A DNA stretch of 64,000 nt. Source: an uncultured Calditrichaceae bacterium. GTDB taxonomy: Bacteria > Calditrichota > Calditrichia > Calditrichales > J004. Below are positions 42,901 through 58,186 of this stretch, in pieces; position 1 is the first letter of the stretch; the number at the start of each line of letters is the position of its first letter. The stretch covers positions 49,593 through 113,592 of the forward strand of contig CAYWBI010000001.1 of NCBI GenBank assembly GCA_964456445.1, given 5' to 3'. The notes below the pieces were generated by a model that made no database searches, was not told the DNA's origin, and saw nothing but the letters and a program-made list of their open reading frames with translations. A program made the translations under genes and the position numbers.

Positions 42901-44498
42901 TAAACCCTCAAAACGAATCGGATTATCGACGTCTTTTGAAGCCGTTAGCTGCCGCAGATATAATTTTCGTTGCCAGTAAAAACGAGAGCGTTACGGAATT
43001 GTTCAACCGCCTGACAACATTAGGAAAAGCGCTTATCCTTCATCCGCAACATGATAAAATGCATTTGACCGTTGTGAGCCACTCTCAATTTAAGTTGATC
43101 GGAACGGAACGTGCCCATTTGGAACATGGCCTTCTGAATGGATTGCTAAAAACATTGATCATAGAATGCCCGGGTTTAATGGCGCGCCTTTTAGACTTAC
43201 CGCAAACGCTGATTGAGGGAGAAATCGGTCACCTGCAAAAAATGCTTTTATCGCCGGATTGGAAAGGGACATACGCCCTGCGTCATGGGCGTTTTTGGCA
43301 GGAAGATTATCAAAAAATTCAACCTGTTGTTACGGCTGCCTTAACTGAGAAGCGGACATCGGTACTTATAACCGGTGGTAGCGGGAACTTAGGTGCTTTA
43401 TTCGTTGAACATCTCGCATCAAAAGGTACAATGGATTTTACACTTGTCTCGCGGTCTTCTTTTCCCAGGCAGGATCAGTGGAATGATCTCAGCGGGCCCT
43501 TGGCGGAAAAGGCGGCAATCTTTGCAACGGCCATGGCAAATGGCTCAACCATTACATTTGAACAGGCCGATGTATCTTCTGAACCGGAAATGCATAAGGT
43601 ATTCGAGACCGTCAATAACCGCCTGGGTAAGATCGATATTGTCATCCATGCTGCGGGTTTAATAGGCGAAGCGGCCTTCCGGCCCATACCGGAAATAGAT
43701 GCGGAGTCCGTAAATGCACAATTTAAAGCAAAGGTGGAAGGTTTTCTGGTTTTGCAGCGCCTGGCCCGAAAATTTAAACCAAAGCTTTGCCTTGCTCAGT
43801 CATCCCTGGCAGCTGTTCTTGGCGGTCTGGGATTTGGGGCTTATGCGGCGGCAAATGCCTTTTTGTCCAATGCCTGCACGGGACTGGAAGAAGACATTCC
43901 ATGGCGTGTTATCGATTGGGATGGTTTAAATTTTAGTACGGATTCAAAACAAAGTAGCTCGCAAAAATACATTTTAAACCGCACGGAAGCGCTGAGCTGC
44001 ATGGATTATATCTTTTCCGATAGCATGCCGGAACGGATCATTATTTCCAGTGGGAACCTGAAAAATCGCCTGGATGCAGTTGAAAATAACCGACAGGCGG
44101 AAACGCCCAACCCAAAATCAAACGAAGAATTATATGACCGGCCCAATTTGCCGACGCCTTATGTGGCAGCGGAAAGCGATCTGCAAAAAGAAATATTAGA
44201 AGTATGGCAAAAATTGTTGGGCATCGGTAAAATCGGTATCCATGACGACTTTTTTGATCTTGGCGGTAATTCCCTGATGGGCACACAGCTTATCTCACGC
44301 ATGCGTGATCGTTTTAAGGTGGACGTGCCCGTGAAGACCCTGTTTGAAAACCCGACCATCGCCGGTGTGGCCGAACAAATCGACCAGGCCCGCTCAAGCG
44401 CGGGAAAACAGGAAGATATGCTGGAGGACATGCTGAATAAAGTAGAAAACATGAGCGCAGAGGAGATTGCCCGGCTTTTAAATAAAACGAAAGAGTGA
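39999..44498 (+). CDS. Type I PKS: KS-AT-(psiKR)-KR-ACP
   Basis: 1499 aa. KS: DIAVIGMAGRFPGA, QTACSTSMV, HGTGTEMGD and GHLDAASG. AT: GHSIGEYVAAH plus HTSHAFHS (the HAFH motif is usually malonyl-CoA). psiKR entry DWFYTPVW, with no HxxxGxxxxP DH motif. KR: VLITGGSGNLG...GAYAAANAF. Carrier: FFDLGGNSLMGTQ. Confidence 0.95.
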   Translation: MSEINEELDIAVIGMAGRFPGADDINEFWEKLKAGVELIRHFSGEELIEAGVDPKLVQNPRYVKARGIINDADGFDAYFFDYSPHEAEIIDPQHRLFLEKCWEAMEHAGYNAEDYDGLIGLFGGVSMNTNLYGYLADRGKPLDAAEGYQLAIGNDKDFLTTRVSYKMNLRGPSLDVQTACSTSMVAITVACQNLLNYSCDMALAGGVSISMPQEQGYLYQEGMILSPDGHCRAFDAKARGTVSGNGAGVVLLKRISDALTAGDTIHAIIKGTSFNNDGARRVGYTAPGVDGQADVIDAAQFMAEIDPRTISYVETHGTGTEMGDPIEVSALKQVFSQATQDKQFCALGSVKSNIGHLDAASGVAGFIKTVLALENKQIPPSLHYEKPNPQIDFENSPFYVNDKLRNWSSDGPRRAGVSSFGIGGTNVHVVLQEAPKLEKTNHIPCPNLFVLSAKTPSALDTASHNLADHFKNHDGIDPADAAFTLFNGRKHFSQRRFVVASSISDAQTVLEGKEPKRLLGMGHKKNPSQPNVVFLFSGQGAQYVNMGKGLYENETVFKKVIDNCSKILEPHLGQKLTDILYPSPGAEETATRILTETRFTQPALFVIELAIARLWEHYGIKATAMAGHSIGEYVAAHLAGVFSLDSVLKVVAERGRMMQSMPGGRMLSIDIDAHEIDSWLIPGISLATVNTKGACVLSGPEDKITELEHKVMEKGIGCRRLHTSHAFHSEMMGPILEAFKHVVESETLSKPTHDYLSNVSGDWISEEEATSPNYYARHLRGTVRFADNLDHLLEDPQVILLEVGPGKTLASLAKRHSRYGLTHTALASLRHPQDPIEDRIQFLTTAGRLWLAGAKLKASALFPDEKYHRLPLPTYPFERKRYWLHKTSGGNTKPAPADDKQNMVTDWFYTPVWKKTFASLPKRQEADKTLFVFYTGTHEPAFTKKLPSANYVGTGKEFRQENDNHILINPQNESDYRRLLKPLAAADIIFVASKNESVTELFNRLTTLGKALILHPQHDKMHLTVVSHSQFKLIGTERAHLEHGLLNGLLKTLIIECPGLMARLLDLPQTLIEGEIGHLQKMLLSPDWKGTYALRHGRFWQEDYQKIQPVVTAALTEKRTSVLITGGSGNLGALFVEHLASKGTMDFTLVSRSSFPRQDQWNDLSGPLAEKAAIFATAMANGSTITFEQADVSSEPEMHKVFETVNNRLGKIDIVIHAAGLIGEAAFRPIPEIDAESVNAQFKAKVEGFLVLQRLARKFKPKLCLAQSSLAAVLGGLGFGAYAAANAFLSNACTGLEEDIPWRVIDWDGLNFSTDSKQSSSQKYILNRTEALSCMDYIFSDSMPERIIISSGNLKNRLDAVENNRQAETPNPKSNEELYDRPNLPTPYVAAESDLQKEILEVWQKLLGIGKIGIHDDFFDLGGNSLMGTQLISRMRDRFKVDVPVKTLFENPTIAGVAEQIDQARSSAGKQEDMLEDMLNKVENMSAEEIARLLNKTKE

Positions 44499-44564: not shown

Positions 44565-44924
44565 TTGGAAGTGAAAGAAAATATTATTCTAGATAAAAGT
44601 TTTAGCTTTGCGGTCCGGATTGTAAAACTATCGCAGTTTCTTACCACCGAAAAGAGAGAGTTTAGTATTTCTCAACAAATATTAAAGTCAGGTACTTCAA
44701 TTGGTGCAAATATTGAAGAAGCAATCGGTGGACAAAGTACAAAGGATTTCATATCTAAATTTTCTATCGCATATAAGGAAGCACGTGAAACGCATTACTG
44801 GTTAAGATTATTACATGAAACTGGTTTTATAGATTCAAAGCTGTTCAATTCTATTTTTGATGATTGTGTCGAAATAATAAAACTACTTACTTCGATTCTG
44901 AAAACAACAAAAAACAATTATTAA
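44565..44924 (+). CDS. Four-helix-bundle protein (23S rRNA intervening-sequence protein / Avd-like family)
   Basis: 119 aa. The segments LDKSFSFAVRIVKL, ILKSGTSIGANIEEA, SKFSIAYKEARETHYWLRLL match my memory of the family consensus (R.SIGANI.EG....S..DF...L.IA.GS..E....L). The start is TTG 44565 or GTG 44571. Confidence 0.8.
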   Translation: MEVKENIILDKSFSFAVRIVKLSQFLTTEKREFSISQQILKSGTSIGANIEEAIGGQSTKDFISKFSIAYKEARETHYWLRLLHETGFIDSKLFNSIFDDCVEIIKLLTSILKTTKNNY

Positions 44925-44964: not shown

Positions 44965-47900
44965 ATGAGTTCCGTCTATCAACAAATTGCCAGCTTGCCG
45001 CCCGACAAACGGGCCGTGCTGGAACTGATGTTAAAAAAACAGGGTGTGGATTTAACTCAAATGCCTATCTTGCCCGAAGCGGGCCCGCGGGACAGCTTTC
45101 CCCTTTCCTTCGCCCAGCAACGCATGTGGTTTTTGGACCAACTGGAACCGGGCAATCCATTGTATAACATTTGCTCGCCGGTACACATTCGCGGCAAGCT
45201 GAATGAAGATGCCTTTCGACGTACCTTTGAACTGATTGTGGAAAAACATGAAACGCTGCGTACGACCTTTTTTAAAGAGGGCGCTGAAGCACGGCAAAAA
45301 ATCCATCCGCATACGGAATTGGACTTTGAAACGATTGAGCTGGATAGCGAAACTGATTTACAACAAAAAATAGTCAGTGAAGCAAATATTTCCTTTAATC
45401 TGCAAAAACGTCTGCCAATGCGCATCCGTCTTTTTAAACTCGGAGCGGAGGAACATGTCGCCGTCCTGACCCTGCATCATATTGTTTCCGACAACTGGTC
45501 AACCGGTGTACTTATTCGTGAGTTTATGAATTTTTATCCCGTCCTCGCTCAAGGCGGAGAGGTAACGATCCAACCGCTGCGCGTACAATACGCGGATTTT
45601 GCTGCCTGGCAGCGTAAATGGCTTTCCGGCAAAACATTGGAAAAACAGCTTCTTTATTGGGAAGAAAAACTGAGCGGTTTACCCGCGGCGCTAGACCTGC
45701 CAACGGATTTCCCCCGTCCGGCCTATCAAACCCACAATGGCGATTTTTTGACTTTTGAGCTGGGCATGACATTGAGCAATTCTTTAAAAAAGTTAGCCGC
45801 ACAATACGATGTTACCCTGTTCATGGCGTTGATGGCCGCTTTTCAAATCCTGATGCTGCATTACAGCCGCCAGGAAGATTTTGCGGTGGGTACGCCCATC
45901 GCCAACCGTAACCGGGCAGAAATCGAGCCATTGATCGGCTTTTTTATCAACACACTGGTTATCCGTTCCGATACCATTGACAATCCCACTGTAAGCACCC
46001 TGCTGAAAAAAATTAAAGAAACCATGATCGGCGCCTACGCCCATCAGGACCTGCCCTTCGAAATGCTGGTGGAAAAGCTGGACCCGGAACGCGATATGAG
46101 CCAATCGCCGCTGTTTCAAACCATGTTGGTTTTTAACAATGCGCCTGTCGATAAACTTGAGCTGCCGAATGCTCAATTAGAGCTCATCGGGTTTGAAAAC
46201 AAGACCAGTAAATTTGATCTGATATTCAATTTTATGGAAAGCGAAAGCGGGCTTGAAGGAAAAGTGGAATTTAATACCGATCTGTTCAAACCCGGGACCG
46301 TCCGTGCAATGATACGCCATTTTACCCGCGTTGTTGAAGCAATGAGCAGCGGACCGGATAAGGCGATTGGAGATATTGCCTTACTCAACACTGATGAGAA
46401 GGAACATATTCTAAAAACCCTAAGGGCCCAGTTCAGGGAAGTTAAGGCATCCAAATTATTACTGCCCTTGATTTTGGAGCAATGTCGATCGGGTGCGGAC
46501 AAAATTGCCCTGAGCAATACCGACGGGGACATGACTTATGCCGATTTAAAATCACATATCAGTGTGGTTCAAAAAGTTTTACAGGATAAAAAAATTCAAC
46601 CCGGCGAAGTGGTTGCAGTGGTAGCCCGCCGCACACCTGCCGCCGTTGCAATCCTACTGGGGGTGATGGCCCACGGAGCGGTTTATCTGCCCATCGATCC
46701 CGCATATCCCGGTGAGCGTCTGGAATTTATGTTAAAGGACAGTGGCGCCCGCTGTGTATTGATGGAGGCCGGATGGAAGCCATCTGCAGCGGAGTTTCTT
46801 GTAAGCAGCCGGTTACCGGTGTATGCGGTAGATGGCGCGCCGGACAGACTACAGAACATGGAAGTTTATCAAAATGAAGATGCTCCGGCCTATCTTATCT
46901 ACACCTCCGGTTCCAGTGGCAAGCCCAAGGGAGTATTGGTCAGTCACCGCGCCATTGCCGACCATACCGTTGATATGTGCGCTTATTTCGGCCTTACGGA
47001 AAACGACCGGTCTTTGCAGTTTGCCGCGATGAACTTTGACGCGGCCCTGGAACAAATCCTCTCTCCTTTATGCGCCGGGGCAACAATCGTTTTGCGCGAT
47101 GAAGATATTTGGCCGGTTGAAAAATTCGCCGATAAAATAAACGACATGGGTTTAACCGTGGTAAATCCGACCACGGCTTATTGGAATCAGTGGTGTGCCC
47201 ATCTTGCCGAAAACGGGTCCACAAACTGCCCCACCCTGCGTCTTGTAATTTCCGGTGGAGACGCTATGACGCCAACCGCCCTAAAGCACTGGAGGCAATC
47301 CGCACTAAAAGGGGTTCGTTTGATAAATGCTTACGGGCCGACGGAAACGGTTATAACATCCACTTGTTTCGATGTGCCGGACGAAAGCCTTGTTTTGGAA
47401 CATAACCGATCGCTCCCCATTGGATTACCCAACGCCAACCGCACGGCTTATGTTTTGGACGAAAGGCAACGGCTCTTGCCTTTCGGATTGCCCGGCGAAC
47501 TTTGTATTGCTGGAAAAAATCTGGCGTCGGGTTATCACAATCGTCCGCAGGAGGAAGCACTGGCCTTTGTAGATGATCCTTTTACGCCGGGTCAAAAAAT
47601 GTACCGCACAGGCGATAAGGTCCGTTTACATGAAAATGGTATCATTGAATTTTTGGGCCGCATCGATGCCCAGGTAAAAATACGCGGGTTTCGCATTGAA
47701 CCGGGCGAGGTGGAAAATATTTTGTCGCAACATCCGGATTTGGAAACCGCATTGATCGCCATTAAAACCGATGTGATGGGCGAGAAACAAGTGGTGGCCT
47801 ATTTCCGGCCCAAGGCCGGAGCGGTGGTTTCGATTCCGGCTTTACGGACTTTTATGAAAAATCAATTACCGCCCTATATGCTGCCCGCGGCATTTATCCA

Positions 47901-48321
47901 GTTAGAGACAGTGCCAATGTTGCCGGGCGGAAAAGTAAACCGTCGTGCCCTGCCCGTTCCCGAGGATTTGCGCGGACAACTAAGCGCCGAATATGTGGCG
48001 CCACGTACGGAAACTGAAGAAAAGCTTGCCGCCATTGTGGCCCAGGTATTGCGTATCGAAAAGGTGGGCGTGTTTGATAATTTTTTTGAACTGGGCGGTC
48101 ACTCCATGCTTGGCACCCAGGTCATGAGTATGATCCGGGAACAATTTGGGGTGGAAGTACCTTTACGTGCTCTTTTTGAAAGTCCCACAGTTGATGGGAT
48201 TGCAGCCAGTCTTATGGAAGAATTGACCGGGGCCATTGACGAAAAAGAACTATCCAACTTACTCGATGATATGGATGATCTTTCCGGGGATGAATTGGAT
48301 GCCCTGCTTAACGATGATTAG
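44965..48321 (+). CDS. NRPS: C(LCL-like)-A-PCP with acidic C-terminal docking tail
   Basis: 1118 aa. C: FPLSFAQQRMWFLDQLEPGN and HHIVSDNWS. A: AYLIYTSGSSGKPKGV, NAYGPTE, GELCIAG and YRTGD. PCP: FFELGGHSMLG. Tail: DDMDDLSGDELDALLNDD. The A code read by eye is DAENIGAITK (unassigned). Confidence 0.95.
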   Translation: MSSVYQQIASLPPDKRAVLELMLKKQGVDLTQMPILPEAGPRDSFPLSFAQQRMWFLDQLEPGNPLYNICSPVHIRGKLNEDAFRRTFELIVEKHETLRTTFFKEGAEARQKIHPHTELDFETIELDSETDLQQKIVSEANISFNLQKRLPMRIRLFKLGAEEHVAVLTLHHIVSDNWSTGVLIREFMNFYPVLAQGGEVTIQPLRVQYADFAAWQRKWLSGKTLEKQLLYWEEKLSGLPAALDLPTDFPRPAYQTHNGDFLTFELGMTLSNSLKKLAAQYDVTLFMALMAAFQILMLHYSRQEDFAVGTPIANRNRAEIEPLIGFFINTLVIRSDTIDNPTVSTLLKKIKETMIGAYAHQDLPFEMLVEKLDPERDMSQSPLFQTMLVFNNAPVDKLELPNAQLELIGFENKTSKFDLIFNFMESESGLEGKVEFNTDLFKPGTVRAMIRHFTRVVEAMSSGPDKAIGDIALLNTDEKEHILKTLRAQFREVKASKLLLPLILEQCRSGADKIALSNTDGDMTYADLKSHISVVQKVLQDKKIQPGEVVAVVARRTPAAVAILLGVMAHGAVYLPIDPAYPGERLEFMLKDSGARCVLMEAGWKPSAAEFLVSSRLPVYAVDGAPDRLQNMEVYQNEDAPAYLIYTSGSSGKPKGVLVSHRAIADHTVDMCAYFGLTENDRSLQFAAMNFDAALEQILSPLCAGATIVLRDEDIWPVEKFADKINDMGLTVVNPTTAYWNQWCAHLAENGSTNCPTLRLVISGGDAMTPTALKHWRQSALKGVRLINAYGPTETVITSTCFDVPDESLVLEHNRSLPIGLPNANRTAYVLDERQRLLPFGLPGELCIAGKNLASGYHNRPQEEALAFVDDPFTPGQKMYRTGDKVRLHENGIIEFLGRIDAQVKIRGFRIEPGEVENILSQHPDLETALIAIKTDVMGEKQVVAYFRPKAGAVVSIPALRTFMKNQLPPYMLPAAFIQLETVPMLPGGKVNRRALPVPEDLRGQLSAEYVAPRTETEEKLAAIVAQVLRIEKVGVFDNFFELGGHSMLGTQVMSMIREQFGVEVPLRALFESPTVDGIAASLMEELTGAIDEKELSNLLDDMDDLSGDELDALLNDD

Positions 48322-48344: not shown

Positions 48345-51300
48345 ATGAGTGATATCTCCGCAAAACTAAAGAACCTAAGCCCTGAACAGCGCGAGCTTCT
48401 TTTAAAGAAATTACAGGCGCGTAAAAAAACCGCTGGCGACGGGCAGGATACAATCGCACCCCGCCCCGATCCTGACCGGTTCCCGGTTTCTTATGCCCAG
48501 GAACGGTTGTGGTTTTTCGATCAACTTGCACCGGGCAGTTCGCTCTATAATATCAGCGCGGCAGTAAAATTTAAAGGACCGCTTGAAACCGATCTGCTTG
48601 AACAAAGCATCAACGCCGTTGTTCAGCGTCATGAGATACTCCAGGTTTATTTCGAAACGGAAAAAGGGGCTCCGTTACAAAAAAAGGCCGGACAGGCCTC
48701 CATTGGCCTGTCTGTTGAAGATATTGGCGATTTGCCGCTGGGGGAACTGGCCGCCATCGAAGCCCAGACGCCTTTTGATCTGTCCCGGGCGCCCTTGCTG
48801 CGCGCGCGTTTGATAAAAGTGGACGAACAGGCCCATGCCCTGCTGCTAACCATCCATCATATTGTGGCCGACGGTTGGTCTATGGGGGTTTTTATAAACG
48901 AAACCGCGCGCTATTACCGTGCACTTCAAGGCGACGGCCAAAAACCGGCCCCGTTGAAAATTCAGTATTTTGATTATGCCTGGTGGCAAAAGAACAAGTC
49001 CGACAAGGCGAAAATGGCCCGTCAGCTTGATTTCTGGGCCGATGAGTTAAAAGGCATGCCCACCTTGCTGGAACTACCTTTTGACCGCAGTCGTGAGGGC
49101 GTTCAGAGTTTTAGGGGACGTCATCATATTTTTCAGATCAGCCCTAAAACAACTGCTGCCCTGCGTGCGCTGTCCCGAAAATCCGGTGTTACCACCTTTA
49201 TTACCCTGTTGGCCGCATTTCAAACCCTGCTGTACCGCTATTCCAACCAGAATGATTTTGGCCTTGGTATCCCCATCGCCAACCGCAATAAAAAGGAGTT
49301 GGAAGCGCTGATCGGTTTTTTTGTAAACACGCTGGTCATCCGCGCAGAGATAGACGGTTCACTGTCCTTTAGCGATTTTCTGAAACAGGTAAAAACCAGG
49401 GCCTTTAAGGCGTATGACAATCAGGATGTGCCCTTTGAGCAGGTGGTGGAAAAAGTACAGCCACAACGCAACAACCAGATCGCACCACTGTTCCAGGTGA
49501 TGTTCGAGTTGCAGGGCGACGCGCTCTCCGGTCTCAACTTTGGCGATCTTGAACTAAAGACAATCGATTTTGAAACCGGTACCGCCAAGTTTGATTTGCT
49601 TTTGATCATGGAAGAGGGCCGTGAAACCCTCAAAGGCGTTCTGGAGTACAACGCGGATTTATTCACAGCGGAAACCGTGGAACGCATGATGCGCCATTTT
49701 GCGTACCTGCTGGATCAAATTGCCCAGGCGCCGGATACGCATCTTGATAAGATTGGCTTATTGCCGCCTGAAGAGGAACAAAACATTTTGCTGCGCTGGA
49801 ACCAGACCGCCGCCGATTATCCCAAGAGCCCGTTTATCCATCAATATACCGCGCAATTTGCCCTAAGTAATCCCGATCATCCGGCGCTTTTGAGCGCGCA
49901 AGGCACCTTTACTTACCGCCAATTTGAAGAACGCGGTAATCAGTTGGCCCATTACCTGGTTTCCCATGGGATCGGGCGGGACGACCGCGTGGGGGTGTGC
50001 ATGGACCGTTCGGCGGAAATGGTTATCGCCCTGCACGGCATTTTAAAGGCCGGGGCCGCATATGTGCCTTTTGACCCGCGCCACCCGGCGGAACGACGCC
50101 GTTTTATGTTGGATGATTCCGGGGCAAGGCTGATCCTGACCCAGGCACATTTGCTGGATTTATTTAAAGGAAGTTCCATACACGCCGTCGTACTGGACGC
50201 CTCTTTTGCCTTAATTGAATCGCTTCCCGTCACGCCCCCTGTGGTGGACATCGACGGTGACCAGTTGGCCTACATGATCTACACCTCCGGTTCCACCGGT
50301 AAACCCAAGGGAACGTTCCTGGCACATAAAAGTATTCTTAACCGATTGATCTGGATGCAGGAAAGCTACGGCCTGACCATGAAGGACGTTGTACTGCAAA
50401 AAACGCCCTTCAGTTTTGATGTGTCGGTCTGGGAGTTTTTCTGGCCTTTTATGCAAGGCGCCACGCTAGCCATCGCCCGCGAAGAAGGCCATAAGGACAG
50501 TGCCTACCTCACCGAGACAGTCCGGCAATACGGTGTGACCACCCTACATTTTGTTCCGCCCATGCTCAAGGTTTTTCTCGAAGACCGTGACAGCAAGAAA
50601 TGCATCTCTTTAAAACGGGTCGTCTGTTCCGGCGAGGCCTTGCCCTACGCGCTGAGCGAGCAATTTTATAAAACGCTTCCCAACGCGGTATTGTACAATT
50701 TATACGGTCCAACGGAAGCCGCCGTCGATGTTACGGCCTATACCTGTCCCAGAGATCGAGACGATAAAAAGCTGCCCATCGGTTCCCCCATCGCCAATAC
50801 CCAAATATATATTCTGGACCCGGCTTTAAATCCCGTACCCGTTGGCGTTGGCGGAGAGCTGTATATCGCCGGGGTTCAGTTGGCACGCGGCTATGCCAAC
50901 AGGCCGGGGCTGACGGCGGAAAAGTTTATCGCCGATCCCTATGCAAAATCCCCCGGCAGCCGTATGTATAAAACGGGCGACCTTTGCCGCTACCTGCCCG
51001 GCGGGGAAATTGAATATCTTGGACGCATCGACCACCAGGTGAAGCTACGCGGTTTTCGAATCGAACTCGGGGAAATTGAAGCAGTTTTACGCGGGCATCC
51101 TGCAATAAAGGATTGCATTGTGCTGGTTCGTGGCACCGATATGGAAAAGGCTATCATAGCCTGGTATATCCCGGAAGAAGGCCAATCTCCTGTCCCGGAG
51201 GATCTGCGCCAATATATCATCCGCCATATGCCGGAATATATGGCCCCCAATTTTTTTATCCCGCTGGATGCTTTTCCGCTTACTTCAAATGGCAAACTTG

Positions 51301-54300
51301 ACCGTCGCGGGCTGCCGGATGTAAACCTGAAAAAGGACAGACCAAAAACACGGTTTGTTTCGCCACGGAACCGGTTGGAAGCCCATCTGGCAGAACTTTG
51401 GCGGGAAATACTTGGCGTAAAGACCCTTAGTATGTACGATAACTTTTTTGATATCGGTGGCAACTCGTTAAAAGCCGCAGTACTTATAAACCGCCTGCAG
51501 GAGGAAGTGGATAAAAAGCTGCATGTAGGTATGGTTTTCCAGGCCCCGCGCATTGCCGAGTTTGCCATGTTTGCCCAGGAATATTTTACCGAAGAAGTAC
51601 TTAAAAATTTTGGGGATTCAGCAGTTGGAGCGGTTGACGACTCTTTTAAGGTCATGGCTATCTCAGCTGAGTCCAAAATTAAAAATGCGGATATTCAGGC
51701 CTTCCGTCAAATTGTGTTTCCGTTGCAAAAACGCAAAAAGGAACCAACGCATCTAACAAAAAACAAACCGGCAATCTTTATTCTTTCTCCCCCGCGTTCA
51801 GGGTCAACGTTATTGCGGATTATGCTGGCCGGTAACCCCGTCCTTTTTTCTCCTCCGGAATTGGATTTGCTCTCATTTAACACCATAGGCGAACGTCGCC
51901 GTTTTTTTGAAGAACAGGGATTGCCTCTCTGGTTGGAAGCTACGACCCATGCCATCAAGGAAATCCAGCACACTTCCCTTGCTGAAGCCGAACGGATCAT
52001 GCGGGATATTGAGGACAAGGATATCACGGTTAAGGATTTTTACCACCTTCTGCAGAATGGATTAAAACAAAAAATACTAGTGGACAAAACACCATCCTAT
52101 GCGATTGATCCGGCAGCCCTACAGCGTGCCGAGGAAGATTTTGAGCAACCTCTTTATGTGCACCTTGCACGTCATCCCTATGCCATGATTTATTCTTTTA
52201 TCGAAGCCAAGCTCGATAAGAATTTTTTTAAATTCCCGCACAAATTTACCCGGCAGCAATTGGCCGAATTGATTTGGCTGAACAGTCATCAAAATATTTT
52301 GGATTTTCTAAAAGACATCCCCGATGAACGCCATGTGTTTTTACGTTTTGAGGACCTGCTTTTTAAACCTGAAGCGGAAATACGGCGACTCACTGAATTT
52401 CTGGGCGTCCCTTTTACTGCCGATATGCTTAAACCCTACCAGGGTAGAAAAATGACGGAGGGGTTAAAGCAGGGTTCACAGATGGTGGGCGATTTTAAAT
52501 TTTATCTGCACCAGAACATCAATAATAAAGTGGCCGGGAAATGGCGCGGCTTTCATAAACATGATTTCCTGTGTGAACAATCGGAAATTTTGGCCGGAAA
52601 TTTTGGATACGAAACCCATACCCGGAGTAAAGCGATTGCAGAAAACACCGACATTCAAAAGATAGAACAGGCTCCGCGGCAAACCTATATGCCGCTCTCC
52701 TTTGCCCAGCAACGGCTCTGGTTTATTGATCAACTGGAACCTGGCAGCACCCAATACAATGTTCCAGGGGCTATCTATATAAACGGCAATGTTGACGCCC
52801 GCTTATTGGAAAAAAGTATTGCCCTTCTCGTAGAGCGCCATGAAATCCTTCGAACGACCTTTCATACCATCGAAGGAAAAGGCATGCAAAAAATACATGC
52901 GGAATATCAACCTGTATTGATTCAGCATGATTTAAGAACGCTTCCTACGGAGCAAAAGGATGTTGCCGCACAGGGTTTAATCGATACTTTGTCCAAAACG
53001 GTTTTTAAACTAAACGAATTACCGATCCTCAAAATAATGCTGGTCCGATTGAAGGAGAACGAATATATTTTTGCCCTTGTTGCACACCACATTATAACTG
53101 ACGGTTGGTCAAACGGGATTATTATCCGTGAAGCGAGCCATTATTATGATCTGTTAATTGAAGAAAAATCCGTCGTAACGCCCGCTCTTGCACTTCAATA
53201 TGTGGATATTGCCGTGTGGCAACGGGAATGGATCAACGGCAACCAGGCAGGGCAACAATTGAATTTCTGGAAAAAAGAGTTGAAAGGGGCGCCGCCTTTG
53301 TTGGACATTCCCACGGATTTTCCGAGAAAAGCGAACAATGCCCCTGTCGGTAAACGACTTTATTTTGAACTTGGCGAAGCCATATCCCAAAAAGTACGTA
53401 CCTGTTGTAACCGGCAAGGTACCACATCCTTTGTAGTACTGATGGCCGCCTTTCAAACCTTAATGCACCATTATGCCGCCCAGCAGGAGGTGTTGATCGG
53501 CACGCCTGTCGCCGGTCGGACCCAACAAGCGATGGAAGGCCTGATCGGTTTTTTTGTTAACACAATTGTACAAAGGACCCAATTTAAACCGGGCGCCACC
53601 TTCAGGGATATCCTGGACCAGGTACGGGACAAGGCCGCGAGAATATTAAACCATCAGGATTACCCCTTTGAAAAATTGCTTGAGGCCCTGAATGTGCAGC
53701 GCAGCCTGGAACATGCCCCGCTGTTTCAGGTGATGTTTTCTATGCAGGAGGATGATATATGTGCCTTTAGTAAAAACTTTGCAACCAGGCCCTACCGTAC
53801 GGATAGCGGAACAGCTAAATTTGATCTGTTGCTGGAATTATTTGACAGTAACTCGATCCGTGGTGCATTTGAATACAATACTTCTTTATTCCGTGCAGAG
53901 ACAATCAAACGACTTAAAGATCATTTTGAACGCTTGCTAATAATTTTAACTACTCAAATGGACATACCGATTGCAGAGATCAATTTTATCGGACCCCATG
54001 AAGAAGAGCTACTGACACACAAGTGGAACGATACGGCCCTTGATTTTCCCAATGGTCAAACCGTTCCTCAGCAGATCATGGAACAAGCGCGCAAAAGGCC
54101 CGGGGCGCCCGCACTGACCTTTGAGGGGCATACGTTCTTGTACGCGGAATTTAATCAAAAGGTTAACCAATGGGCGCATCTGCTTGTGGAGAACGGCGTG
54201 CAACGCGAGCAGCGGGTGGCGGTTTGTCTGGAACGCTCGGATAACATGGTACTGGCCCTAAATGCCGTCATGCGCTGTGGTGGCGTTTATGTGCCCCTGG

Positions 54301-57239
54301 ACCCCGGTCATCCTGTGGACCGTACAACCTTTATGCTTCAGGATTCCGGTGCGCGGACAGTGATAACCACCACCAATCTTGCAGATAAATTTGAAAACCA
54401 GGAGATAAGAATCATTTTCATGGATAGCGCAGATGTTGATAAACAACCATCCAGCGACCCGACGATTGACTTTGACCTTGATCAACTGGCCTATATGATC
54501 TACACCTCCGGTTCTACCGGCAAGCCCAAAGGGACCCTGCTTACACACCGCGGTTTCTTAAATCGCCTGCAATGGATGCAACAGGCCTACCCTCTGGGGC
54601 CGGGCGAAACGGTCCTGCAGAAAACACCTTTTAGTTTTGATGTTTCTGTTTGGGAATTCTTTTGGCCTTTTATGTTTGGGGCACGTTTGGTGGTTGCCCG
54701 CGACGGCGGACACAAGGATACAGCCTATCTCACGGACTTGATCCGACGGGAAAATGTTACGACCATGCATTTTGTACCGCCCATGTTAAAGGTTTTTCTG
54801 GAAGAGCGTAATGCCGGGGCATGTACAAGCCTGAAAAATGTGGTCTGTTCCGGTGAAGCCCTTCCCTATGCCCTGAGCCGGGAATTTTATAAAACCCTGC
54901 CCACCGCCCGTTTGCATAACCTTTACGGCCCTACGGAAGCTTCTGTTGATGTGAGTCATTATACCTGTCCTGTTGAACGGGAAGACGGTAAATTACCCAT
55001 TGGACGGCCAATTGCCAATACTCTGTTGTATGTTTTGAATCCTGCTTTAAAACCGGTGCCTGTTGGTGTAAGGGGGGAATTGCATATTGGAGGCGTGCAA
55101 CTGGCGCGCGGCTATGCCAACCGCCCGGATCTTACCGCGGAAAAATTTATTCCCGATCCCTTTGGGAAGGTACCCGGCGCCCGGTTATATAAAACCGGCG
55201 ATGTGTGCCGCTTTCTTCCAACTGGTGAAATCGAGTATATAGGACGTATGGACCATCAGGTGAAAGTGCGTGGCTTCCGCATTGAATTGGGTGAAATTGA
55301 ATCCGCTCTGCGTAAAGGTCCAGGCGTAGAAGATTGTACCGTACAGGTTCGTCCTTTCGGAAGTCAAGAAAAGGCATTGGTTGCATATGTCGTAAGCAAG
55401 GAACAGCAGCCATCCCAGGCAACCCTAAAAGATGCGTTAAAGAAAAACCTCCCGGATTATATGGTACCTTCTGCCTGGCTTTTTATAGATAAAATTCCAC
55501 TCACGGCAAATGGAAAAATTGATCGGGAATCCTTGCCAAATCCTGCCGACCTTGGACGGAACCAATTGGAAAATGCCTATCTTGCACCCCGCAATGATCG
55601 GGAAAAGCAGCTGTCCGATTTGTGGATGAAAGTGTTGAAGCTGGATAAAGTGGGCGTTAGGGACAACTTTTTTGAATTGGGTGGTGATTCCATTGTGGGG
55701 ATTCAACTTATTTCCGCCTCGGCCAGGGATGGACTCACTTTTACACCCCGGGAACTATTTGAGAATCCGACCATCGAAGGGCTGGCGACTATTGCCCGTG
55801 AAGGGGTGGCGATCCATGCCGAGCAGCAACCAATCACAGGGGAAGTAGAATTAACCCCGATTCTGCTCTGGTTTAAACAACTCGATCTGCCGCAACGCGC
55901 ACACTGGAACCAATCCATAATGCTTAAAAGCCAAGCCGCCCTCAAGCCGGATATTCTCCAAGGAGTGGCCAACACGTTATATGCCCATCACGATATGCTG
56001 CGCTTATATTGGGATGATGGAAGCCCCATGATAGCAACACAGACGACGGAGGCACCCCTTTTTGAATATCAGGATTTGCGCCGCTTAAACCTGGATGAGC
56101 AGAAATCCAGCATGAAAAAAATTGTTGAAAAAACCCAAAGCGGACATGATCTGCAAAGGGGGCCCTTGTTTAAAATCCTTTATTTCTCCCTGGACAGTGC
56201 TATTGGTGACCGTTTATTTATTAGCATCCATCATACCGTTATTGATGCGGTTTCGTGGCGGGTGCTGCTGGAGGATTTGCAACTGGCTTATGCACGGTTT
56301 AGCGAAGAAAAACCGCTAACTTTACCGGCCAAGACCACTTCCTTTGCTTACTATGCGAAACGTTTAAAGGAATATGCCCGCACCACGGATTGGGGAAAGG
56401 AAATGAAATTTTGGCAAAATTTTATCGGGCAAGAGGCAGCTTCGTTAAAGATGTTGAAAACGGGTAAAAATTTGCAAAAAGACCGCATACATATTGACAT
56501 TAAATTGAATATAGAACAAACAGCCAACCTACAACGCGTGGTACCGGAAACCTATAATACCAGAGTTGTCGAAAATTTATTGACAGCGTTATTCATCGCC
56601 TGGAAAAACCTTAAGGGCACAAACAGCTTACTGATCGATATGGAAGGGCATGGACGCGAAGCTTTATTTGAAGAAGTTGACCTGGCCCGCACCGTGGGAT
56701 GGTTTACATCGCTTTTTCCCGTACATTTGCATACATCAGAGTCGGACTTGGGTGAAGTGATCAAGTCCCTTAAAGAAGAAATACGTGCTATTCCTGAGAA
56801 TGGGATCAATTATGGATTGTTGAGGTTTTTGGCGCCAGAGACCGTCCGTAAGGAGATAGAAAAATTGCCCAGCGCCGGGATATTGTTTAATTACCTGGGA
56901 CAGTTTGAACAAGATGAAGCCATGAAAAGCCGCTTTGAAATGAAACCGGGGGAAACCGGCGCCGACATTGGTGCTGAAAACAGAAACAGCCATCTGCTTG
57001 AAATTACATCCAGTATTGTTAATGGTGTTTTTAACATAACCTTTAATTTTTGTCCCGATAGCGTGAGTGAAAGTTTTATTGTTCAATTTGCCGATAAAAC
57101 CGTCCAGGCTTTAGATCAAATAATCGAGCACAGCTTAAGCGGCGAAAGCGGAGGATATACACCTTCTGACTTTTCAGCGATGGAGGTTGACCAGGAAGAG
57201 TTAGATGATATTTTATCCGAATTGGATGATTTGGAATGA
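48345..57239 (+). CDS. NRPS: C-A(Ser)-PCP-ST-C-A(Ser)-PCP-E
   Basis: 2964 aa. C1 HHIVADGWS. A1 AYMIYTSGSTGKPKGT, code DVWHVSLVDK. PCP1 FFDIGGNSL (Ser codon 51465-51467). Sulfotransferase region (see separate feature). C2 HHIITDGWS (53085). A2 code DVWHVSLVDK. PCP2 FFELGGDSIVG (the GGDSI form typical before E domains). E domain HHTVIDAVSWRVL (56229). Confidence 0.95.
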   Translation: MSDISAKLKNLSPEQRELLLKKLQARKKTAGDGQDTIAPRPDPDRFPVSYAQERLWFFDQLAPGSSLYNISAAVKFKGPLETDLLEQSINAVVQRHEILQVYFETEKGAPLQKKAGQASIGLSVEDIGDLPLGELAAIEAQTPFDLSRAPLLRARLIKVDEQAHALLLTIHHIVADGWSMGVFINETARYYRALQGDGQKPAPLKIQYFDYAWWQKNKSDKAKMARQLDFWADELKGMPTLLELPFDRSREGVQSFRGRHHIFQISPKTTAALRALSRKSGVTTFITLLAAFQTLLYRYSNQNDFGLGIPIANRNKKELEALIGFFVNTLVIRAEIDGSLSFSDFLKQVKTRAFKAYDNQDVPFEQVVEKVQPQRNNQIAPLFQVMFELQGDALSGLNFGDLELKTIDFETGTAKFDLLLIMEEGRETLKGVLEYNADLFTAETVERMMRHFAYLLDQIAQAPDTHLDKIGLLPPEEEQNILLRWNQTAADYPKSPFIHQYTAQFALSNPDHPALLSAQGTFTYRQFEERGNQLAHYLVSHGIGRDDRVGVCMDRSAEMVIALHGILKAGAAYVPFDPRHPAERRRFMLDDSGARLILTQAHLLDLFKGSSIHAVVLDASFALIESLPVTPPVVDIDGDQLAYMIYTSGSTGKPKGTFLAHKSILNRLIWMQESYGLTMKDVVLQKTPFSFDVSVWEFFWPFMQGATLAIAREEGHKDSAYLTETVRQYGVTTLHFVPPMLKVFLEDRDSKKCISLKRVVCSGEALPYALSEQFYKTLPNAVLYNLYGPTEAAVDVTAYTCPRDRDDKKLPIGSPIANTQIYILDPALNPVPVGVGGELYIAGVQLARGYANRPGLTAEKFIADPYAKSPGSRMYKTGDLCRYLPGGEIEYLGRIDHQVKLRGFRIELGEIEAVLRGHPAIKDCIVLVRGTDMEKAIIAWYIPEEGQSPVPEDLRQYIIRHMPEYMAPNFFIPLDAFPLTSNGKLDRRGLPDVNLKKDRPKTRFVSPRNRLEAHLAELWREILGVKTLSMYDNFFDIGGNSLKAAVLINRLQEEVDKKLHVGMVFQAPRIAEFAMFAQEYFTEEVLKNFGDSAVGAVDDSFKVMAISAESKIKNADIQAFRQIVFPLQKRKKEPTHLTKNKPAIFILSPPRSGSTLLRIMLAGNPVLFSPPELDLLSFNTIGERRRFFEEQGLPLWLEATTHAIKEIQHTSLAEAERIMRDIEDKDITVKDFYHLLQNGLKQKILVDKTPSYAIDPAALQRAEEDFEQPLYVHLARHPYAMIYSFIEAKLDKNFFKFPHKFTRQQLAELIWLNSHQNILDFLKDIPDERHVFLRFEDLLFKPEAEIRRLTEFLGVPFTADMLKPYQGRKMTEGLKQGSQMVGDFKFYLHQNINNKVAGKWRGFHKHDFLCEQSEILAGNFGYETHTRSKAIAENTDIQKIEQAPRQTYMPLSFAQQRLWFIDQLEPGSTQYNVPGAIYINGNVDARLLEKSIALLVERHEILRTTFHTIEGKGMQKIHAEYQPVLIQHDLRTLPTEQKDVAAQGLIDTLSKTVFKLNELPILKIMLVRLKENEYIFALVAHHIITDGWSNGIIIREASHYYDLLIEEKSVVTPALALQYVDIAVWQREWINGNQAGQQLNFWKKELKGAPPLLDIPTDFPRKANNAPVGKRLYFELGEAISQKVRTCCNRQGTTSFVVLMAAFQTLMHHYAAQQEVLIGTPVAGRTQQAMEGLIGFFVNTIVQRTQFKPGATFRDILDQVRDKAARILNHQDYPFEKLLEALNVQRSLEHAPLFQVMFSMQEDDICAFSKNFATRPYRTDSGTAKFDLLLELFDSNSIRGAFEYNTSLFRAETIKRLKDHFERLLIILTTQMDIPIAEINFIGPHEEELLTHKWNDTALDFPNGQTVPQQIMEQARKRPGAPALTFEGHTFLYAEFNQKVNQWAHLLVENGVQREQRVAVCLERSDNMVLALNAVMRCGGVYVPLDPGHPVDRTTFMLQDSGARTVITTTNLADKFENQEIRIIFMDSADVDKQPSSDPTIDFDLDQLAYMIYTSGSTGKPKGTLLTHRGFLNRLQWMQQAYPLGPGETVLQKTPFSFDVSVWEFFWPFMFGARLVVARDGGHKDTAYLTDLIRRENVTTMHFVPPMLKVFLEERNAGACTSLKNVVCSGEALPYALSREFYKTLPTARLHNLYGPTEASVDVSHYTCPVEREDGKLPIGRPIANTLLYVLNPALKPVPVGVRGELHIGGVQLARGYANRPDLTAEKFIPDPFGKVPGARLYKTGDVCRFLPTGEIEYIGRMDHQVKVRGFRIELGEIESALRKGPGVEDCTVQVRPFGSQEKALVAYVVSKEQQPSQATLKDALKKNLPDYMVPSAWLFIDKIPLTANGKIDRESLPNPADLGRNQLENAYLAPRNDREKQLSDLWMKVLKLDKVGVRDNFFELGGDSIVGIQLISASARDGLTFTPRELFENPTIEGLATIAREGVAIHAEQQPITGEVELTPILLWFKQLDLPQRAHWNQSIMLKSQAALKPDILQGVANTLYAHHDMLRLYWDDGSPMIATQTTEAPLFEYQDLRRLNLDEQKSSMKKIVEKTQSGHDLQRGPLFKILYFSLDSAIGDRLFISIHHTVIDAVSWRVLLEDLQLAYARFSEEKPLTLPAKTTSFAYYAKRLKEYARTTDWGKEMKFWQNFIGQEAASLKMLKTGKNLQKDRIHIDIKLNIEQTANLQRVVPETYNTRVVENLLTALFIAWKNLKGTNSLLIDMEGHGREALFEEVDLARTVGWFTSLFPVHLHTSESDLGEVIKSLKEEIRAIPENGINYGLLRFLAPETVRKEIEKLPSAGILFNYLGQFEQDEAMKSRFEMKPGETGADIGAENRNSHLLEITSSIVNGVFNITFNFCPDSVSESFIVQFADKTVQALDQIIEHSLSGESGGYTPSDFSAMEVDQEELDDILSELDDLE
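51740..52620 (+). other. Embedded sulfotransferase domain (CurM/Ols 'activating ST'-like) between PCP1 and C2
   Basis: KPAIFILSPPRSGSTLLRIMLAGNPVLFSPPELDLLSFNT (PAPS 5'-phosphosulfate-binding loop PRSGST at 51789-51809), LVDKTPSYA, YVHLARHPYAMIYSF and GDFKFYLHQNINNKVAGKWR. These four blocks parallel the CurM ST domain blocks as I remember them. Borders are approximate. Confidence 0.8.
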
Positions 57240-58186
57240 AAACAGGAAAAAATATGGCAAGACCGGTTTTAATTTCAGGATTGCAACGCTCAGGTACAAC
57301 CTGGACGGCCCGCATGTTAACCCTTTCGGATGAGATGTTCTATGTTTTGGAACCTTTTAATATCCTGCGTGACCCCATTCATCTGATTGGAGCGGGCACC
57401 AACTTCCCCTATTTCCAGGAGGTTGATTCGGAACGATATGTCAAAATAAGAAGCGGACTCGGCTTGAGTTTCACAAAGGATGAATTAAGGGTTTTTATGA
57501 AACAATCCCCTTCTCCCAAGTACCATCTGTACCATATAGTACGCTACCTTAGCTTAAACAGGCGTTTGAATAAAGGGATGAAACCGGTGATACAGGACCC
57601 TTTCGCTGTTTTTATGGCACCCTGGCTCAGTCATAATTTGGGAATTTTACCCCTGTTTCTGTTCCGCCACCCCGCTGCCTATATCAACAGCATGAAACGT
57701 ATGAAGTGGGGTTTTAATTTTGCCTGGCTTGCCGATCAGGAAGAATTGATGGATGAATACTTATCTGATTTTAGCGATGATATACGTAAATGGGCCGGGG
57801 AAGAATTCATTCCTTTTTCTATTGAAACACAATGTCTGGTCTGGAATATATTTACCAGCGTTATTTTACGTTACTCCAAGGAACACAGCAACTGGCTTTT
57901 TTATCGACATGAAGATTTATCGATGAATCCCATGACGTTGTTTTATAAAATATATGCAGAAATTGGAATTGACATGAATCAAACAATTATGCGGAAAATT
58001 GAAAAATTTACTGGCAGCGGCAATCCTGCCACGGCACGCGATGGTAAAATGCACAGTTTAAAACGCAATAGCAGGGAAAATATAAAAAATTGGCAAAAGC
58101 AATTAAGCGTTGATGAAATCAATCAAATACATCATTTAACCGCAGCTTTTTCCAATCCACTTTACTCCGAGGACGAGTGGCATTAA
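57236..58186 (+). CDS. Stand-alone sulfotransferase
   Basis: 316 aa with PSB-loop-like ISGLQRSGTTWTARML, a mid-protein FRHPAAYINS block and a C-terminal KRNSRENIKNWQKQLS block (cf. RKG..GDWK..F of PAPS-dependent STs). The ATG overlaps the upstream TGA (ATGA, 57236-57239). Confidence 0.75.
   Translation: MKTGKNMARPVLISGLQRSGTTWTARMLTLSDEMFYVLEPFNILRDPIHLIGAGTNFPYFQEVDSERYVKIRSGLGLSFTKDELRVFMKQSPSPKYHLYHIVRYLSLNRRLNKGMKPVIQDPFAVFMAPWLSHNLGILPLFLFRHPAAYINSMKRMKWGFNFAWLADQEELMDEYLSDFSDDIRKWAGEEFIPFSIETQCLVWNIFTSVILRYSKEHSNWLFYRHEDLSMNPMTLFYKIYAEIGIDMNQTIMRKIEKFTGSGNPATARDGKMHSLKRNSRENIKNWQKQLSVDEINQIHHLTAAFSNPLYSEDEWH

What the first reader, a model, noticed from the sequence alone, without database searches (positions are those of the whole stretch)
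51340..52700. CurM/Ols-type sulfotransferase domain fused in cis inside an NRPS, directly after a Ser-loading A-PCP
Seen in sequence: within the 2964-aa NRPS, the order is C-A-PCP(Ser codon 51465)-[~290 aa sulfotransferase]-C-A-PCP-E. The inserted region carries the PAPS-binding loop PPRSGSTLLRIMLAG plus three further blocks (LVDKTPSYA, YVHLARHPYAMIYSF, GDFKF..KWR). These parallel the ST domain of CurM and olefin synthases rather than cytosolic-type STs. The preceding A domain reads DVWHVSLVDK, 9/10 identical to the EntF Ser code DVWHFSLVDK.

Established knowledge: in CurM/Ols the ST sulfonates the beta-hydroxyl of an ACP-bound beta-hydroxyacyl thioester, turning it into a leaving group for the adjacent TE.

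Inference: a (peptidyl-)seryl-S-PCP presents a hydroxyl at the same C3 position relative to the thioester. This module therefore probably makes O-sulfoseryl-S-PCP on-line. The sulfate is then either retained (a sulfated lipopeptide) or eliminated to dehydroalanine before or during the next condensation. I am not aware of a described C-A-T-ST-C elongation architecture, but I cannot search.
Basis: partly seen in the sequence, partly recalled or inferred. Interest (0 to 1): 0.9.

Follow-up and report, generated by a model that had tools for sequence, protein, structure and literature searches.

The report
Sulfotransferase domain inside a peptide synthetase

Summary
ORF 48345..57239 (2964 aa) reads C-A(Ser)-PCP-ST-C-A(Ser)-PCP-E. 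The ST (aa 1142-1430) matches CurM ST (E 2e-62) and keeps the PAPS loops and catalytic Arg/Glu/Lys. CurM His62 is replaced by Asp.

The architecture is not unique. A genome scan found 489 relatives, and the 80 fetched all carry the PCP-ST-C junction. Described precedents are AerB, DysB and OciA, where the ST follows an FkbH-loaded glycerate and the sulfate is retained.

NRPS-embedded STs fall into two clades.
- Clade B, which contains this window: a syntenic lipopeptide cluster family in Calditrichota, KSB1, Chloroflexota and others. The module before the ST loads Val/Ile/Leu in most members, and Ser/Thr in only 5 of 32. The ST is the best-conserved domain there. Extra STs appear only when that residue is Ser, Thr or a diamino acid.

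The ST most likely sulfonates the PCP1-bound peptide. The acceptor is more probably a conserved upstream group (Lys-like residue or KR-made hydroxyl) than Ser. The adjacent stand-alone ST is the better candidate for Ser. This is a new variant of a known kind, and no biochemistry exists.

The parts
48345..57239 (+). NRPS ORF4, 2964 aa: C-A(Ser)-PCP-ST-C-A(Ser)-PCP-E
48480..49790 (+). C1 condensation domain (HHIVADGWS at aa 171)
   Evidence: Pfam Condensation aa 46-482; motif
49860..51299 (+). A1 adenylation domain, code DVWHVSLVDK (Ser)
   Evidence: Pfam AMP-binding aa 506-850; code
51372..51584 (+). PCP1; phosphopantetheine Ser1041 at 51465-51467 (approximate domain limits)
   Evidence: GGNSL at aa 1038; PP-binding x2
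51768..52634 (+). CurM-type sulfotransferase domain (aa 1142-1430). Carries the 5'-PSB loop PPRSGST, catalytic Glu in PPEL, Asp in place of CurM His62, Lys in LVDKTP, and the 3'-PB motif RHPYAMIYS.
52692..54029 (+). C2 condensation domain, canonical (LSFAQQRLWF..., HHIITDGWS); orthologous to the C2 of clusters with Val/Ile before the ST
54081..55520 (+). A2 adenylation domain, code DVWHVSLVDK (Ser)
55608..55790 (+). PCP2
   Evidence: Pfam PP-binding aa 2422-2482
55827..57224 (+). E (epimerisation) domain (approximate limits)
   Evidence: TIGR01720 E 8e-38; HHTVIDAVS
57236..58186 (+). Stand-alone sulfotransferase, 316 aa. Its start overlaps the NRPS stop (ATGA). It is unrelated in sequence to the in-cis ST.
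   Evidence: Pfam Sulfotransfer_1 E 3.7e-7; ortholog only in L002
44965..48321 (+). NRPS ORF3 C-A-PCP, code DAENIGAITK (Lys/diamino-acid-like). This is the conserved residue at position -1 relative to the ST module in all syntenic clusters.
39999..44498 (+). PKS ORF2 KS-AT-KR-ACP (KR motifs intact, no DH). It makes a gamma-amino-beta-hydroxy (statine-type) unit from the preceding Tyr.
27930..39836 (+). ORF1 FAAL-ACP-KS-AT-DH-ER-KR-ACP-C-A(DASTIAAICK, Tyr-like)-PCP: lipid starter plus first residue
58239..64000 (+). ORF6, an NRPS running off the window: C(DCL-like start)-A(Ser, DVWHISLVDK)-PCP-C-A(Phe-like)...
27084..27845 (+). AraC-type HTH regulator at the upstream edge of the cluster; housekeeping genes lie upstream of it

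Best explanation
The insert is a functional PAPS-dependent CurM-family sulfotransferase tailoring domain. It acts on-line on the intermediate tethered to PCP1 of a hybrid PKS-NRPS lipopeptide assembly line.

Predicted chain: acyl-Tyr-(C2, beta-OH)-Lys-like-Ser-D-Ser-Ser-Phe...

The sulfate is most likely retained, giving a sulfated lipopeptide. The acceptor is more probably a group shared by all orthologous clusters than the Ser hydroxyl. The candidates are the side chain of the Lys/diamino-acid-like residue one position upstream (N-sulfonation) and the KR-derived beta-hydroxyl two positions upstream. The translationally coupled stand-alone ST is the better candidate for Ser O-sulfation.

Shown: domain identity, conserved catalytic set, architecture, and distribution. 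Inferred: activity, on-line timing, acceptor, and fate of the sulfate.
For: - ST fold and family: E 2.4e-62 to CurM ST.
- Arg39, Glu60 and Lys133 equivalents and both PAPS motifs are invariant across NRPS-embedded STs.
- Clade-B STs sit in a conserved synteny: AT-KR-ACP; C-A[D(A/Q/P)ENIGAITK]-PCP; C-A[X]-PCP-ST-C-A[Y]-PCP-E.
- X is Val/Ile/Leu-like in about 34 loci, Ser in 4, Thr in 1, Asn in 1 and diamino-like in 3.
- There is no enrichment of hydroxy residues before the ST in clade B (5/32 against 10/59, p = 1.0).
- The ST is the best-conserved domain of the bimodule (51-67% identity, against 35-42% for C/A/E).
- L003 has swapped C1-A1 to Val but kept PCP1-ST.
- Extra STs at this position occur only when X is Thr (L018), diamino-like (L022, L032, L094) or Ser (window and L002, as the stand-alone ST). 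The extra copies belong to other lineages.
- STs directly follow diamino-type modules elsewhere: L039 with a Dab code; L008, L076, L013 and L095; and Agrobacterium vitis A[DAEVVGAVAK]-PCP-ST-TE next to ectB and cysDN.
- N-sulfonation of a PCP-bound peptide has a precedent in SulN (PMC11298585).
- Sulfate is retained in the described NRPS-ST products, where AerB sulfates methylglycerate (PMC10143770).
Against: - Every characterised or well-correlated relative modifies the unit attached directly to the upstream carrier protein. Examples are CurM/Ols, AerB/DysB/OciA on glycerate, and clade A on Ser/Thr/Tyr. By that rule the Ser on PCP1 is the acceptor.
- The aliphatic residues in orthologs could be beta-hydroxylated in trans. 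I could not see whole clusters, because the flanks are all megasynthase. Only one downstream edge (L087) and one upstream edge (the window) were visible, and neither has a hydroxylase.
- L011 and L087 lack the statine module within two positions, and L011 lacks the Lys-like residue at -1.
- The trees are NJ without support values.
- Substrate codes are predictions.
- No biochemistry exists.
Confidence: 0.45

Rival explanations
1. One reading: the in-cis ST O-sulfonates the beta-hydroxyl of (peptidyl-)seryl-S-PCP1, and the O-sulfoserine is kept in the final lipopeptide.
For: - The upstream A code is Ser.
- The Ser beta-OH has the same position relative to the thioester as the CurM substrate, and as the C3-OH of glycerate in AerB-type modules (regiochemistry from memory).
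- Clade A shows a 40/42 association of the ST with Ser/Thr/Tyr modules, and ST subclades track the residue.
- In-cis tailoring domains normally act on the unit just loaded.
Against: - The window's own clade shows no such association.
- Orthologs 57-67% identical in the ST have Val/Ile at this position.
- There is no Ser-specific signature in the ST.
- An additional ST gene appears exactly in the Ser-type clusters.
Confidence: 0.3
2. One reading: O-sulfoseryl-S-PCP1 loses sulfate to give dehydroalanine before or during condensation by C2. This would be a PAPS-driven dehydration.
For: - CurM ST installs sulfate as a leaving group (established knowledge).
- An O-sulfoseryl thioester is chemically prone to beta-elimination (inference).
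Against: - C2 has canonical motifs. It is as similar to the C2 of the Val-type ortholog L003 (56%) as to the Ser-type L002 (56%), so it shows no specialisation.
- In the same family, STs follow Tyr modules, where elimination is impossible.
- STs also follow glycerate modules, where the sulfate is retained in the product.
- All the objections to Ser as acceptor apply here too.
Confidence: 0.07
3. All clade-B STs act on a beta-hydroxyl of their own module's residue. Val/Ile/Leu/Asn in orthologs are beta-hydroxylated in trans on the PCP, and Ser in this window supplies the hydroxyl directly.
For: - This keeps the family rule of a beta-OH on the adjacent carrier protein.
- L087 has Asn before the ST, and beta-OH-Asn is common in NRPs (general knowledge).
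- Cluster ends were mostly not visible.
Against: - No hydroxylase was found at the two cluster edges seen.
- The X module is swapped among at least six substrate types while the ST stays conserved. That would require a matching change of a substrate-specific hydroxylase each time (inference).
- L018 (X = Thr) still carries two STs.
Confidence: 0.1

Closest known systems
AerB (varlaxin, suomilide), DysB (dysinosin) and OciA (cyanopeptolin/oscillapeptin): NRPS-embedded ST domains
   Same: - A CurM-like ST is fused between a PCP and the next C domain of an NRPS, followed by C-A-PCP-E.
- ST identity to the window is about 50% (L040 and other Nostoc loci).
- The sulfate is retained in the products (PMC10143770, PMC6520454, PMC2533009).
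   Different: - There the PCP is loaded with glycerate by an FkbH (plus O-MT) starter module. Here it is loaded by an A domain in an elongation module.
- Those STs fall in clade A (Glu at CurM His62), whereas the window falls in clade B (Asp).
- The function of those domains is itself inferred from product structures.
CurM and olefin synthase (Ols) ST domains (PDB 4gbm, 4gox)
   Same: - Same fold and family (E 1e-62 and 1e-57; about 38% identity).
- Same PAPS loops and Arg/Glu/Lys catalytic set.
- Both act next to a carrier protein.
   Different: - CurM/Ols: ACP-ST-TE at the end of a PKS, where the sulfate is a leaving group for decarboxylative chain release.
- Here: PCP-ST-C in mid-assembly line, with no TE.
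- His62 is replaced by Asp.
SulN of sulfazecin biosynthesis
   Same: PAPS-dependent sulfonation of a PCP-bound peptidyl thioester during NRPS assembly. The acceptor is the amine of a diamino acid (PMC11298585). This is a model for the N-sulfonation reading.
   Different: SulN is a stand-alone enzyme acting in trans on the terminal Dap before beta-lactam formation. Sequence relatedness to the window's ST was not tested.
Uncharacterised clade-A A(Ser/Thr/Tyr)-PCP-ST-C modules (Thermoanaerobaculia, Acidobacteriota, Delftia, Thalassomonas, Propionivibrio)
   Same: Same A-PCP-ST-C elongation architecture, with 47-52% ST identity.
   Different: It is a different ST clade. There the ST tracks the hydroxy amino acid of its own module. 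No product is known.

Membership tests
CurM/Ols-type sulfotransferase domain (sequence family) | Significant full-length similarity to the solved CurM/Ols ST domains | tested here: met
   E 2.4e-62 and 3.3e-57 over about 290 aa; 38% identity; Pfam Sulfotransfer_3
CurM/Ols-type sulfotransferase domain (sequence family) | PAPS-binding 5'-PSB loop (PRSGST) and 3'-PB motif (RHPxxxxxS) | tested here: met
   PPRSGST and RHPYAMIYS align to CurM PRSGST and RHPYSVIES; invariant in NRPS-type STs
CurM/Ols-type sulfotransferase domain (sequence family) | Active-site Arg39, Glu60, His62 and Lys133 (residue roles from memory of McCarthy et al. 2012; the paper was not available) | tested here: inconclusive
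   Arg, Glu and Lys are kept, but His62 is Asp (ELDLL). Clade B has Asp, clade A has Glu, and ACP-ST and CurM/Ols have His.
CurM/Ols activating ST (functional system) | Context KS-AT-KR-ACP-ST-TE, with sulfate used as a leaving group in decarboxylative release | tested here: not met
   The context is A-PCP-ST-C-A-PCP-E, with no TE in the ORF
NRPS-embedded tailoring ST (AerB/DysB/OciA type) | ST fused between a PCP and the following C domain of an NRPS | tested here: met
   Nostoc AerB-like loci align over the whole PCP-ST-C junction
NRPS-embedded tailoring ST (AerB/DysB/OciA type) | Upstream PCP loaded with glycerate by an FkbH domain | tested here: not met
   The upstream domain is an A domain with a Ser code. 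FkbH/O-MT sequence is seen only in the Nostoc/Symploca loci.
NRPS-embedded tailoring ST (AerB/DysB/OciA type) | Sulfate ester retained in the final product | not testable with these tools
   No product is known for this cluster
Clade-A side-chain STs (ST after a Ser/Thr/Tyr module) | ST lineage with Glu at CurM His62, co-varying with the own-module hydroxy amino acid | tested here: not met
   The window ST has Asp and groups with clade B. Clade B shows no association with hydroxy residues.
Clade-B syntenic lipopeptide cluster family (Calditrichota/KSB1/Chloroflexota etc.) | AT-KR-ACP ; C-A[DxENIGAITK]-PCP ; C-A[X]-PCP-ST-C-A[Y]-PCP-E gene order | tested here: met
   The window has exactly this order. 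It is shared by L001-L003, L005, L007-L010, L013-L015, L020-L026, L049 and L081-L090.

The most novel reading that the evidence does not exclude
The ST works as a leaving-group installer inside an NRPS line. It sulfonates either the Ser hydroxyl or the KR-derived beta-hydroxyl of the Tyr-statine unit (ORF2 has a KR but no DH). Elimination then yields dehydroalanine or a vinylogous-tyrosine Michael acceptor. This would be a PAPS-driven, DH-independent dehydration in mid-assembly.
Probability: 0.1. Interest if true: 0.85.

Novelty: new variant of a known kind. Interest (0 to 1): 0.6.

Why it matters
Sulfated nonribosomal peptides are rare among characterised compounds. The only described in-cis NRPS sulfotransferases modify a glycerate starter unit.

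This work shows that ST domains in elongation modules are common across many, mostly uncultured, phyla. They fall into two lineages with different logic. One tracks Ser/Thr/Tyr on its own module. The other, which includes this window, is indifferent to its own module's residue.

If the second lineage acts on an upstream residue or on an amine, it would be an unusual remote-acting or N-sulfonating in-cis tailoring domain. It would also affect product prediction: placing the sulfate on the adjacent residue would mis-predict these products. The family points to an untapped class of polysulfated lipopeptides.

Tried and rejected
- Exact-protein look-up of the stand-alone ST to identify the source contig found nothing on record. 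The window's genome is also absent from the genome collection. The best relative is 70% identical and is a Calditrichia MAG.
- The CurM ST structure paper (PMC3528841) is not held. The residue roles of Arg39, Glu60, His62 and Lys133 therefore rest on memory. Only the numbering was checked, against the 4gbm chain.
- Literature searches found only the glycerate-type domains and SulN. The topics covered were an A-PCP-ST-C module, Ser O-sulfation in NRPS, and ST-driven Dha/Dhb formation.
- A search for the A-domain codes DAENIGAITK and related codes gave no paper.
- I looked for trans-hydroxylases near clade-B STs. All flanks are megasynthase. The only non-NRPS flanks hold an ST, MFS and TEII (L087), and a DAHP synthase and RND pump (L086).
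- I could not compare C2 with reference dehydrating (modAA) C domains, because no reference sequences were available. I used ortholog comparison instead.
- An early code extraction was off by one at positions 330/331 and was corrected.
- Structure prediction was not run. The match to solved structures at E 1e-62 made it redundant.
Full report
**1. What is in the window**

ORF 48345..57239 (+) is one uninterrupted 2964-aa frame. Pfam finds three Condensation, two AMP-binding and two PP-binding domains, plus Sulfotransfer_3 at aa 1142-1358 (E 1.5e-24). The C-terminal C-like domain is an epimerase (TIGR01720, E 8e-38).

The PCP1 serine (GGNSL, aa 1041) lies at nt 51465, exactly as reported. Translated window 51645-52724 matches the solved CurM ST (4gbm, E 2.4e-62) and the olefin-synthase ST (4gox, E 3.3e-57). 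The next best solved proteins, tyrosylprotein STs, reach only E ~1e-3. Identity is 38% over about 290 aa.

The 5'-phosphosulfate loop (PPRSGST), the 3'-phosphate motif (RHPYAMIYS), the Glu of PPEL and the Lys of LVDKTP align with CurM Arg39, Glu60 and Lys133. Those residue roles come from my memory of McCarthy et al. 2012, which was not retrievable. CurM His62 is Asp here. Both A domains of the ORF read DVWHVSLVDK, a Ser code. The extraction method reproduces canonical Thr, Gly, Phe, Tyr, Asn, Gln and Dab codes in other loci, which validates the positions used.

**2. The surrounding cluster**

Genes upstream of 27 kb are housekeeping. The cluster contains the following genes:

| Coordinates | Content |
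|---|---|
| 27084..27845 | AraC-type regulator |
| 27930..39836 | ORF1: FAAL-ACP-KS-AT-DH-ER-KR-ACP-C-A(DASTIAAICK, Tyr-like)-PCP |
| 39999..44498 | ORF2: KS-AT-KR-ACP (KR motifs intact, no DH) |
| 44565..44924 | Small PF05635 gene |
| 44965..48321 | ORF3: C-A(DAENIGAITK)-PCP |
| 48345..57239 | ORF4: the finding |
| 57236..58186 | Stand-alone 316-aa ST whose ATG overlaps the ORF4 stop |
| 58239..>64000 | ORF6: C-A(Ser)-PCP-C-A(Phe-like)..., running off the window |

The predicted chain is acyl-Tyr-(C2 unit with beta-OH)-Lys-like-Ser-D-Ser-Ser-Phe-... It offers several possible sulfate acceptors and is served by two STs.

**3. The architecture is widespread, and partly known**

A protein search with the ST returned many metagenomic fragments carrying AMP-binding_C, PP-binding, ST and Condensation domains. 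None has a characterised name. A scan of species-representative genomes with the PCP-ST-C junction found 489 relatives. All of the best 80 match the whole junction.

The nearest relatives are Calditrichia/Calditrichota MAGs (62-70% identity). The window's own genome is not in the collection. A metagenome scan added 19 more loci.

Nostoc and Symploca loci are O-MT-FkbH-PCP-ST-C-A(Ile/Val)-PCP-E. This is AerB of varlaxin/suomilide and DysB of dysinosin, where the ST is held to sulfate the methylglycerate starter and the sulfate is retained (PMC10143770; PMC6520454). OciA is a further example (PMC2533009).

I found no paper describing an ST after an A-PCP elongation module.

**4. Two lineages with different logic**

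NJ trees of about 100 ST domains separate two clades. The residue at CurM His62 gives the same split.

- Clade A has Glu at that position. It includes Acidobacteriota, Thermoanaerobaculia, Proteobacteria, the FkbH type and some ST-TE proteins.
- Clade B has Asp at that position. It includes Calditrichota, KSB1, Bacteroidota, Ignavibacteriota, Chloroflexota and the window.

In clade A, 40 of 42 modules followed by an ST have Ser, Thr or Tyr codes, against 6 of 70 modules without an ST (Fisher p = 1.7e-21, not corrected for relatedness). Assembly lines with several STs place each one after Ser, Thr or Tyr. ST subclades follow the residue type even within a single protein (L025, L036, L071).

**5. 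The window's own clade does not follow that rule**

Clade B is a syntenic cluster family: AT-KR-ACP; C-A[D(A/Q/P)ENIGAITK]-PCP; C-A[X]-PCP-ST-C-A[Y]-PCP-E.... The residue X before the ST varies as follows:

| X | Loci |
|---|---|
| Ser | window, L001, L002, L005 |
| Thr | L018 |
| Asn | L087 |
| Diamino-like | L022, L032, L094 |
| Val/Ile/Leu-like | about 34 loci |

Ser/Thr precede the ST in 5 of 32 cases, against 10 of 59 modules without an ST (p = 1.0).

The ST is the best-conserved domain of the bimodule, at 51-67% identity against 35-42% for C1, A1, C2, A2 and E. Relative to the window, L003 has exchanged C1-A1 (39-40% identity, Val code) but kept PCP1 (78%), ST (67%), C2 (56%), A2 (67%) and PCP2 (75%). 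No ST alignment column separates Ser-associated from aliphatic-associated members.

Extra STs at this position appear only when X is not aliphatic. They take the form of tandem ST-ST in L018 (Thr) and in L022, L032 and L094 (diamino-like). In those tandems the PCP-proximal copy comes from a different lineage. In the window and L002 (Ser) the extra ST is the stand-alone gene.

The simplest reading is that the conserved clade-B ST serves an acceptor common to all these clusters, and that the extra STs serve X.

**6. Candidate acceptors**

Two groups are conserved upstream. One is the KR-made hydroxyl at position -2. The other is the residue at -1, coded DAENIGAITK.

The -1 code has Glu239, which suggests a cationic side chain. 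ORF3's best full-length NCBIfam equivalog is the Lys-activating MxcG, though below its cutoff.

STs directly follow diamino-type modules in several other places:
- L039, with a canonical Dab code.
- L008, L076, L013 and L095, with DAE[HD]xG.. codes.
- An Agrobacterium vitis plasmid gene, A[DAEVVGAVAK]-PCP-ST-TE, flanked by ectB (Dab synthesis) and cysDN.

N-sulfonation of a PCP-bound peptide has a biochemical precedent in SulN (PMC11298585). L087 lacks a PKS module at -2 but keeps a diamino-like residue at -1. L011 has neither. I therefore rank the -1 residue slightly above the statine hydroxyl, but neither is shown.

**7.

The general rule of the family is that the ST acts on the unit carried by the adjacent carrier protein. 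That rule favours Ser.

I could not exclude that aliphatic X residues in orthologs are beta-hydroxylated in trans, because nearly all fetched flanks are megasynthase. The two cluster edges I could see carry no hydroxylase. Repeated swapping of X among at least six substrate types also makes a matched hydroxylase unlikely; this last point is inference.

The Dha version has no specific support:
- C2 is canonical and equally similar to the C2 of Val-type and Ser-type orthologs.
- Related STs follow Tyr and glycerate, where the sulfate cannot leave or demonstrably stays.

**8. Verdict**

The domain assignment and the Ser code are correct. The claim of an unprecedented architecture is weakened. The proposed acceptor is plausible but is not the best-supported option.

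My estimates are:

| Reading | Probability |
|---|---|
| Conserved upstream acceptor, sulfate retained | about 0.45 |
| O-sulfoserine retained | about 0.30 |
| Own-residue beta-OH rule across clade B with trans hydroxylation | about 0.10 |
| Dha formation | about 0.07 |
| Other, or inactive | remainder |

It is a new variant of a known kind, namely an NRPS-embedded CurM-like ST. It belongs to a large uncharacterised family that merits biochemical work.

Noticed in passing
window 57236..58186 (+): Stand-alone 316-aa sulfotransferase (Sulfotransfer_1, PAPS loop SGLQRSGTTW). Its ATG overlaps the TGA of the NRPS (ATGA). It is unrelated in sequence to the in-cis ST. An ortholog is seen only in L002, the other cluster with Ser-D-Ser-Ser.
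   Followed up: partly
window 44565..44924 (+): A 119-aa gene of the 23S rRNA-intervening-sequence protein family (PF05635, E 4e-29) sits between the PKS gene and the next NRPS gene of the cluster.
   Followed up: no
window 39999..44498 with 38025..39836: A Tyr-like A domain (DASTIAAICK) is followed by KS-AT-KR-ACP without a DH. This predicts a Tyr-derived gamma-amino-beta-hydroxy (statine-type) unit in the lipopeptide.
   Followed up: partly
L025, L047, L064, L071, L073 (whole loci): Thermoanaerobaculia/Acidobacteriota assembly lines carry two or three in-cis STs, each after a Ser, Thr or Tyr module. This implies polysulfated peptides.
   Followed up: partly
L018 4854-7058; L022 8924-11111; L032 8987-11189; L094 8996-11196: Tandem ST-ST didomains follow a single PCP. 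The two copies belong to different ST lineages.
   Followed up: partly
L100 18123-21770 (Agrobacterium vitis plasmid NZ_AP023281.1): A stand-alone A[DAEVVGAVAK]-PCP-ST-TE protein lies next to ectB (diaminobutyrate transaminase) and cysD/cysN. It may make an N-sulfonated diamino-acid product, reminiscent of sulfazecin logic.
   Followed up: partly
L039 around 10271: An ST directly follows a module with the canonical Dab code DIWEITADDK. No hydroxyl is available, which suggests N-sulfonation.
   Followed up: no
proteins P0009, P0036, P0053, P0060, P0061 and others: ACP-ST didomain proteins of about 430 aa are common in cyanobacteria (for example Anabaena sp. PCC 7108). They keep His at the CurM His62 position and form their own clade.
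   Followed up: no
L096 and L097 (FAAL at about 1500-2500, ST about 2 kb downstream): A more distant ST (37% identity) lies downstream of a FAAL-type domain, which is a different architecture.
   Followed up: no
L087 16614-20124: The NRPS ends in an E domain. It is followed by a stand-alone Sulfotransfer_3 gene, an MFS transporter and a type II thioesterase. The in-cis ST there follows an Asn-coded module.
   Followed up: partly
window 20766..21764 (-): A 332-aa ORF among housekeeping genes has no Pfam match.
   Followed up: no
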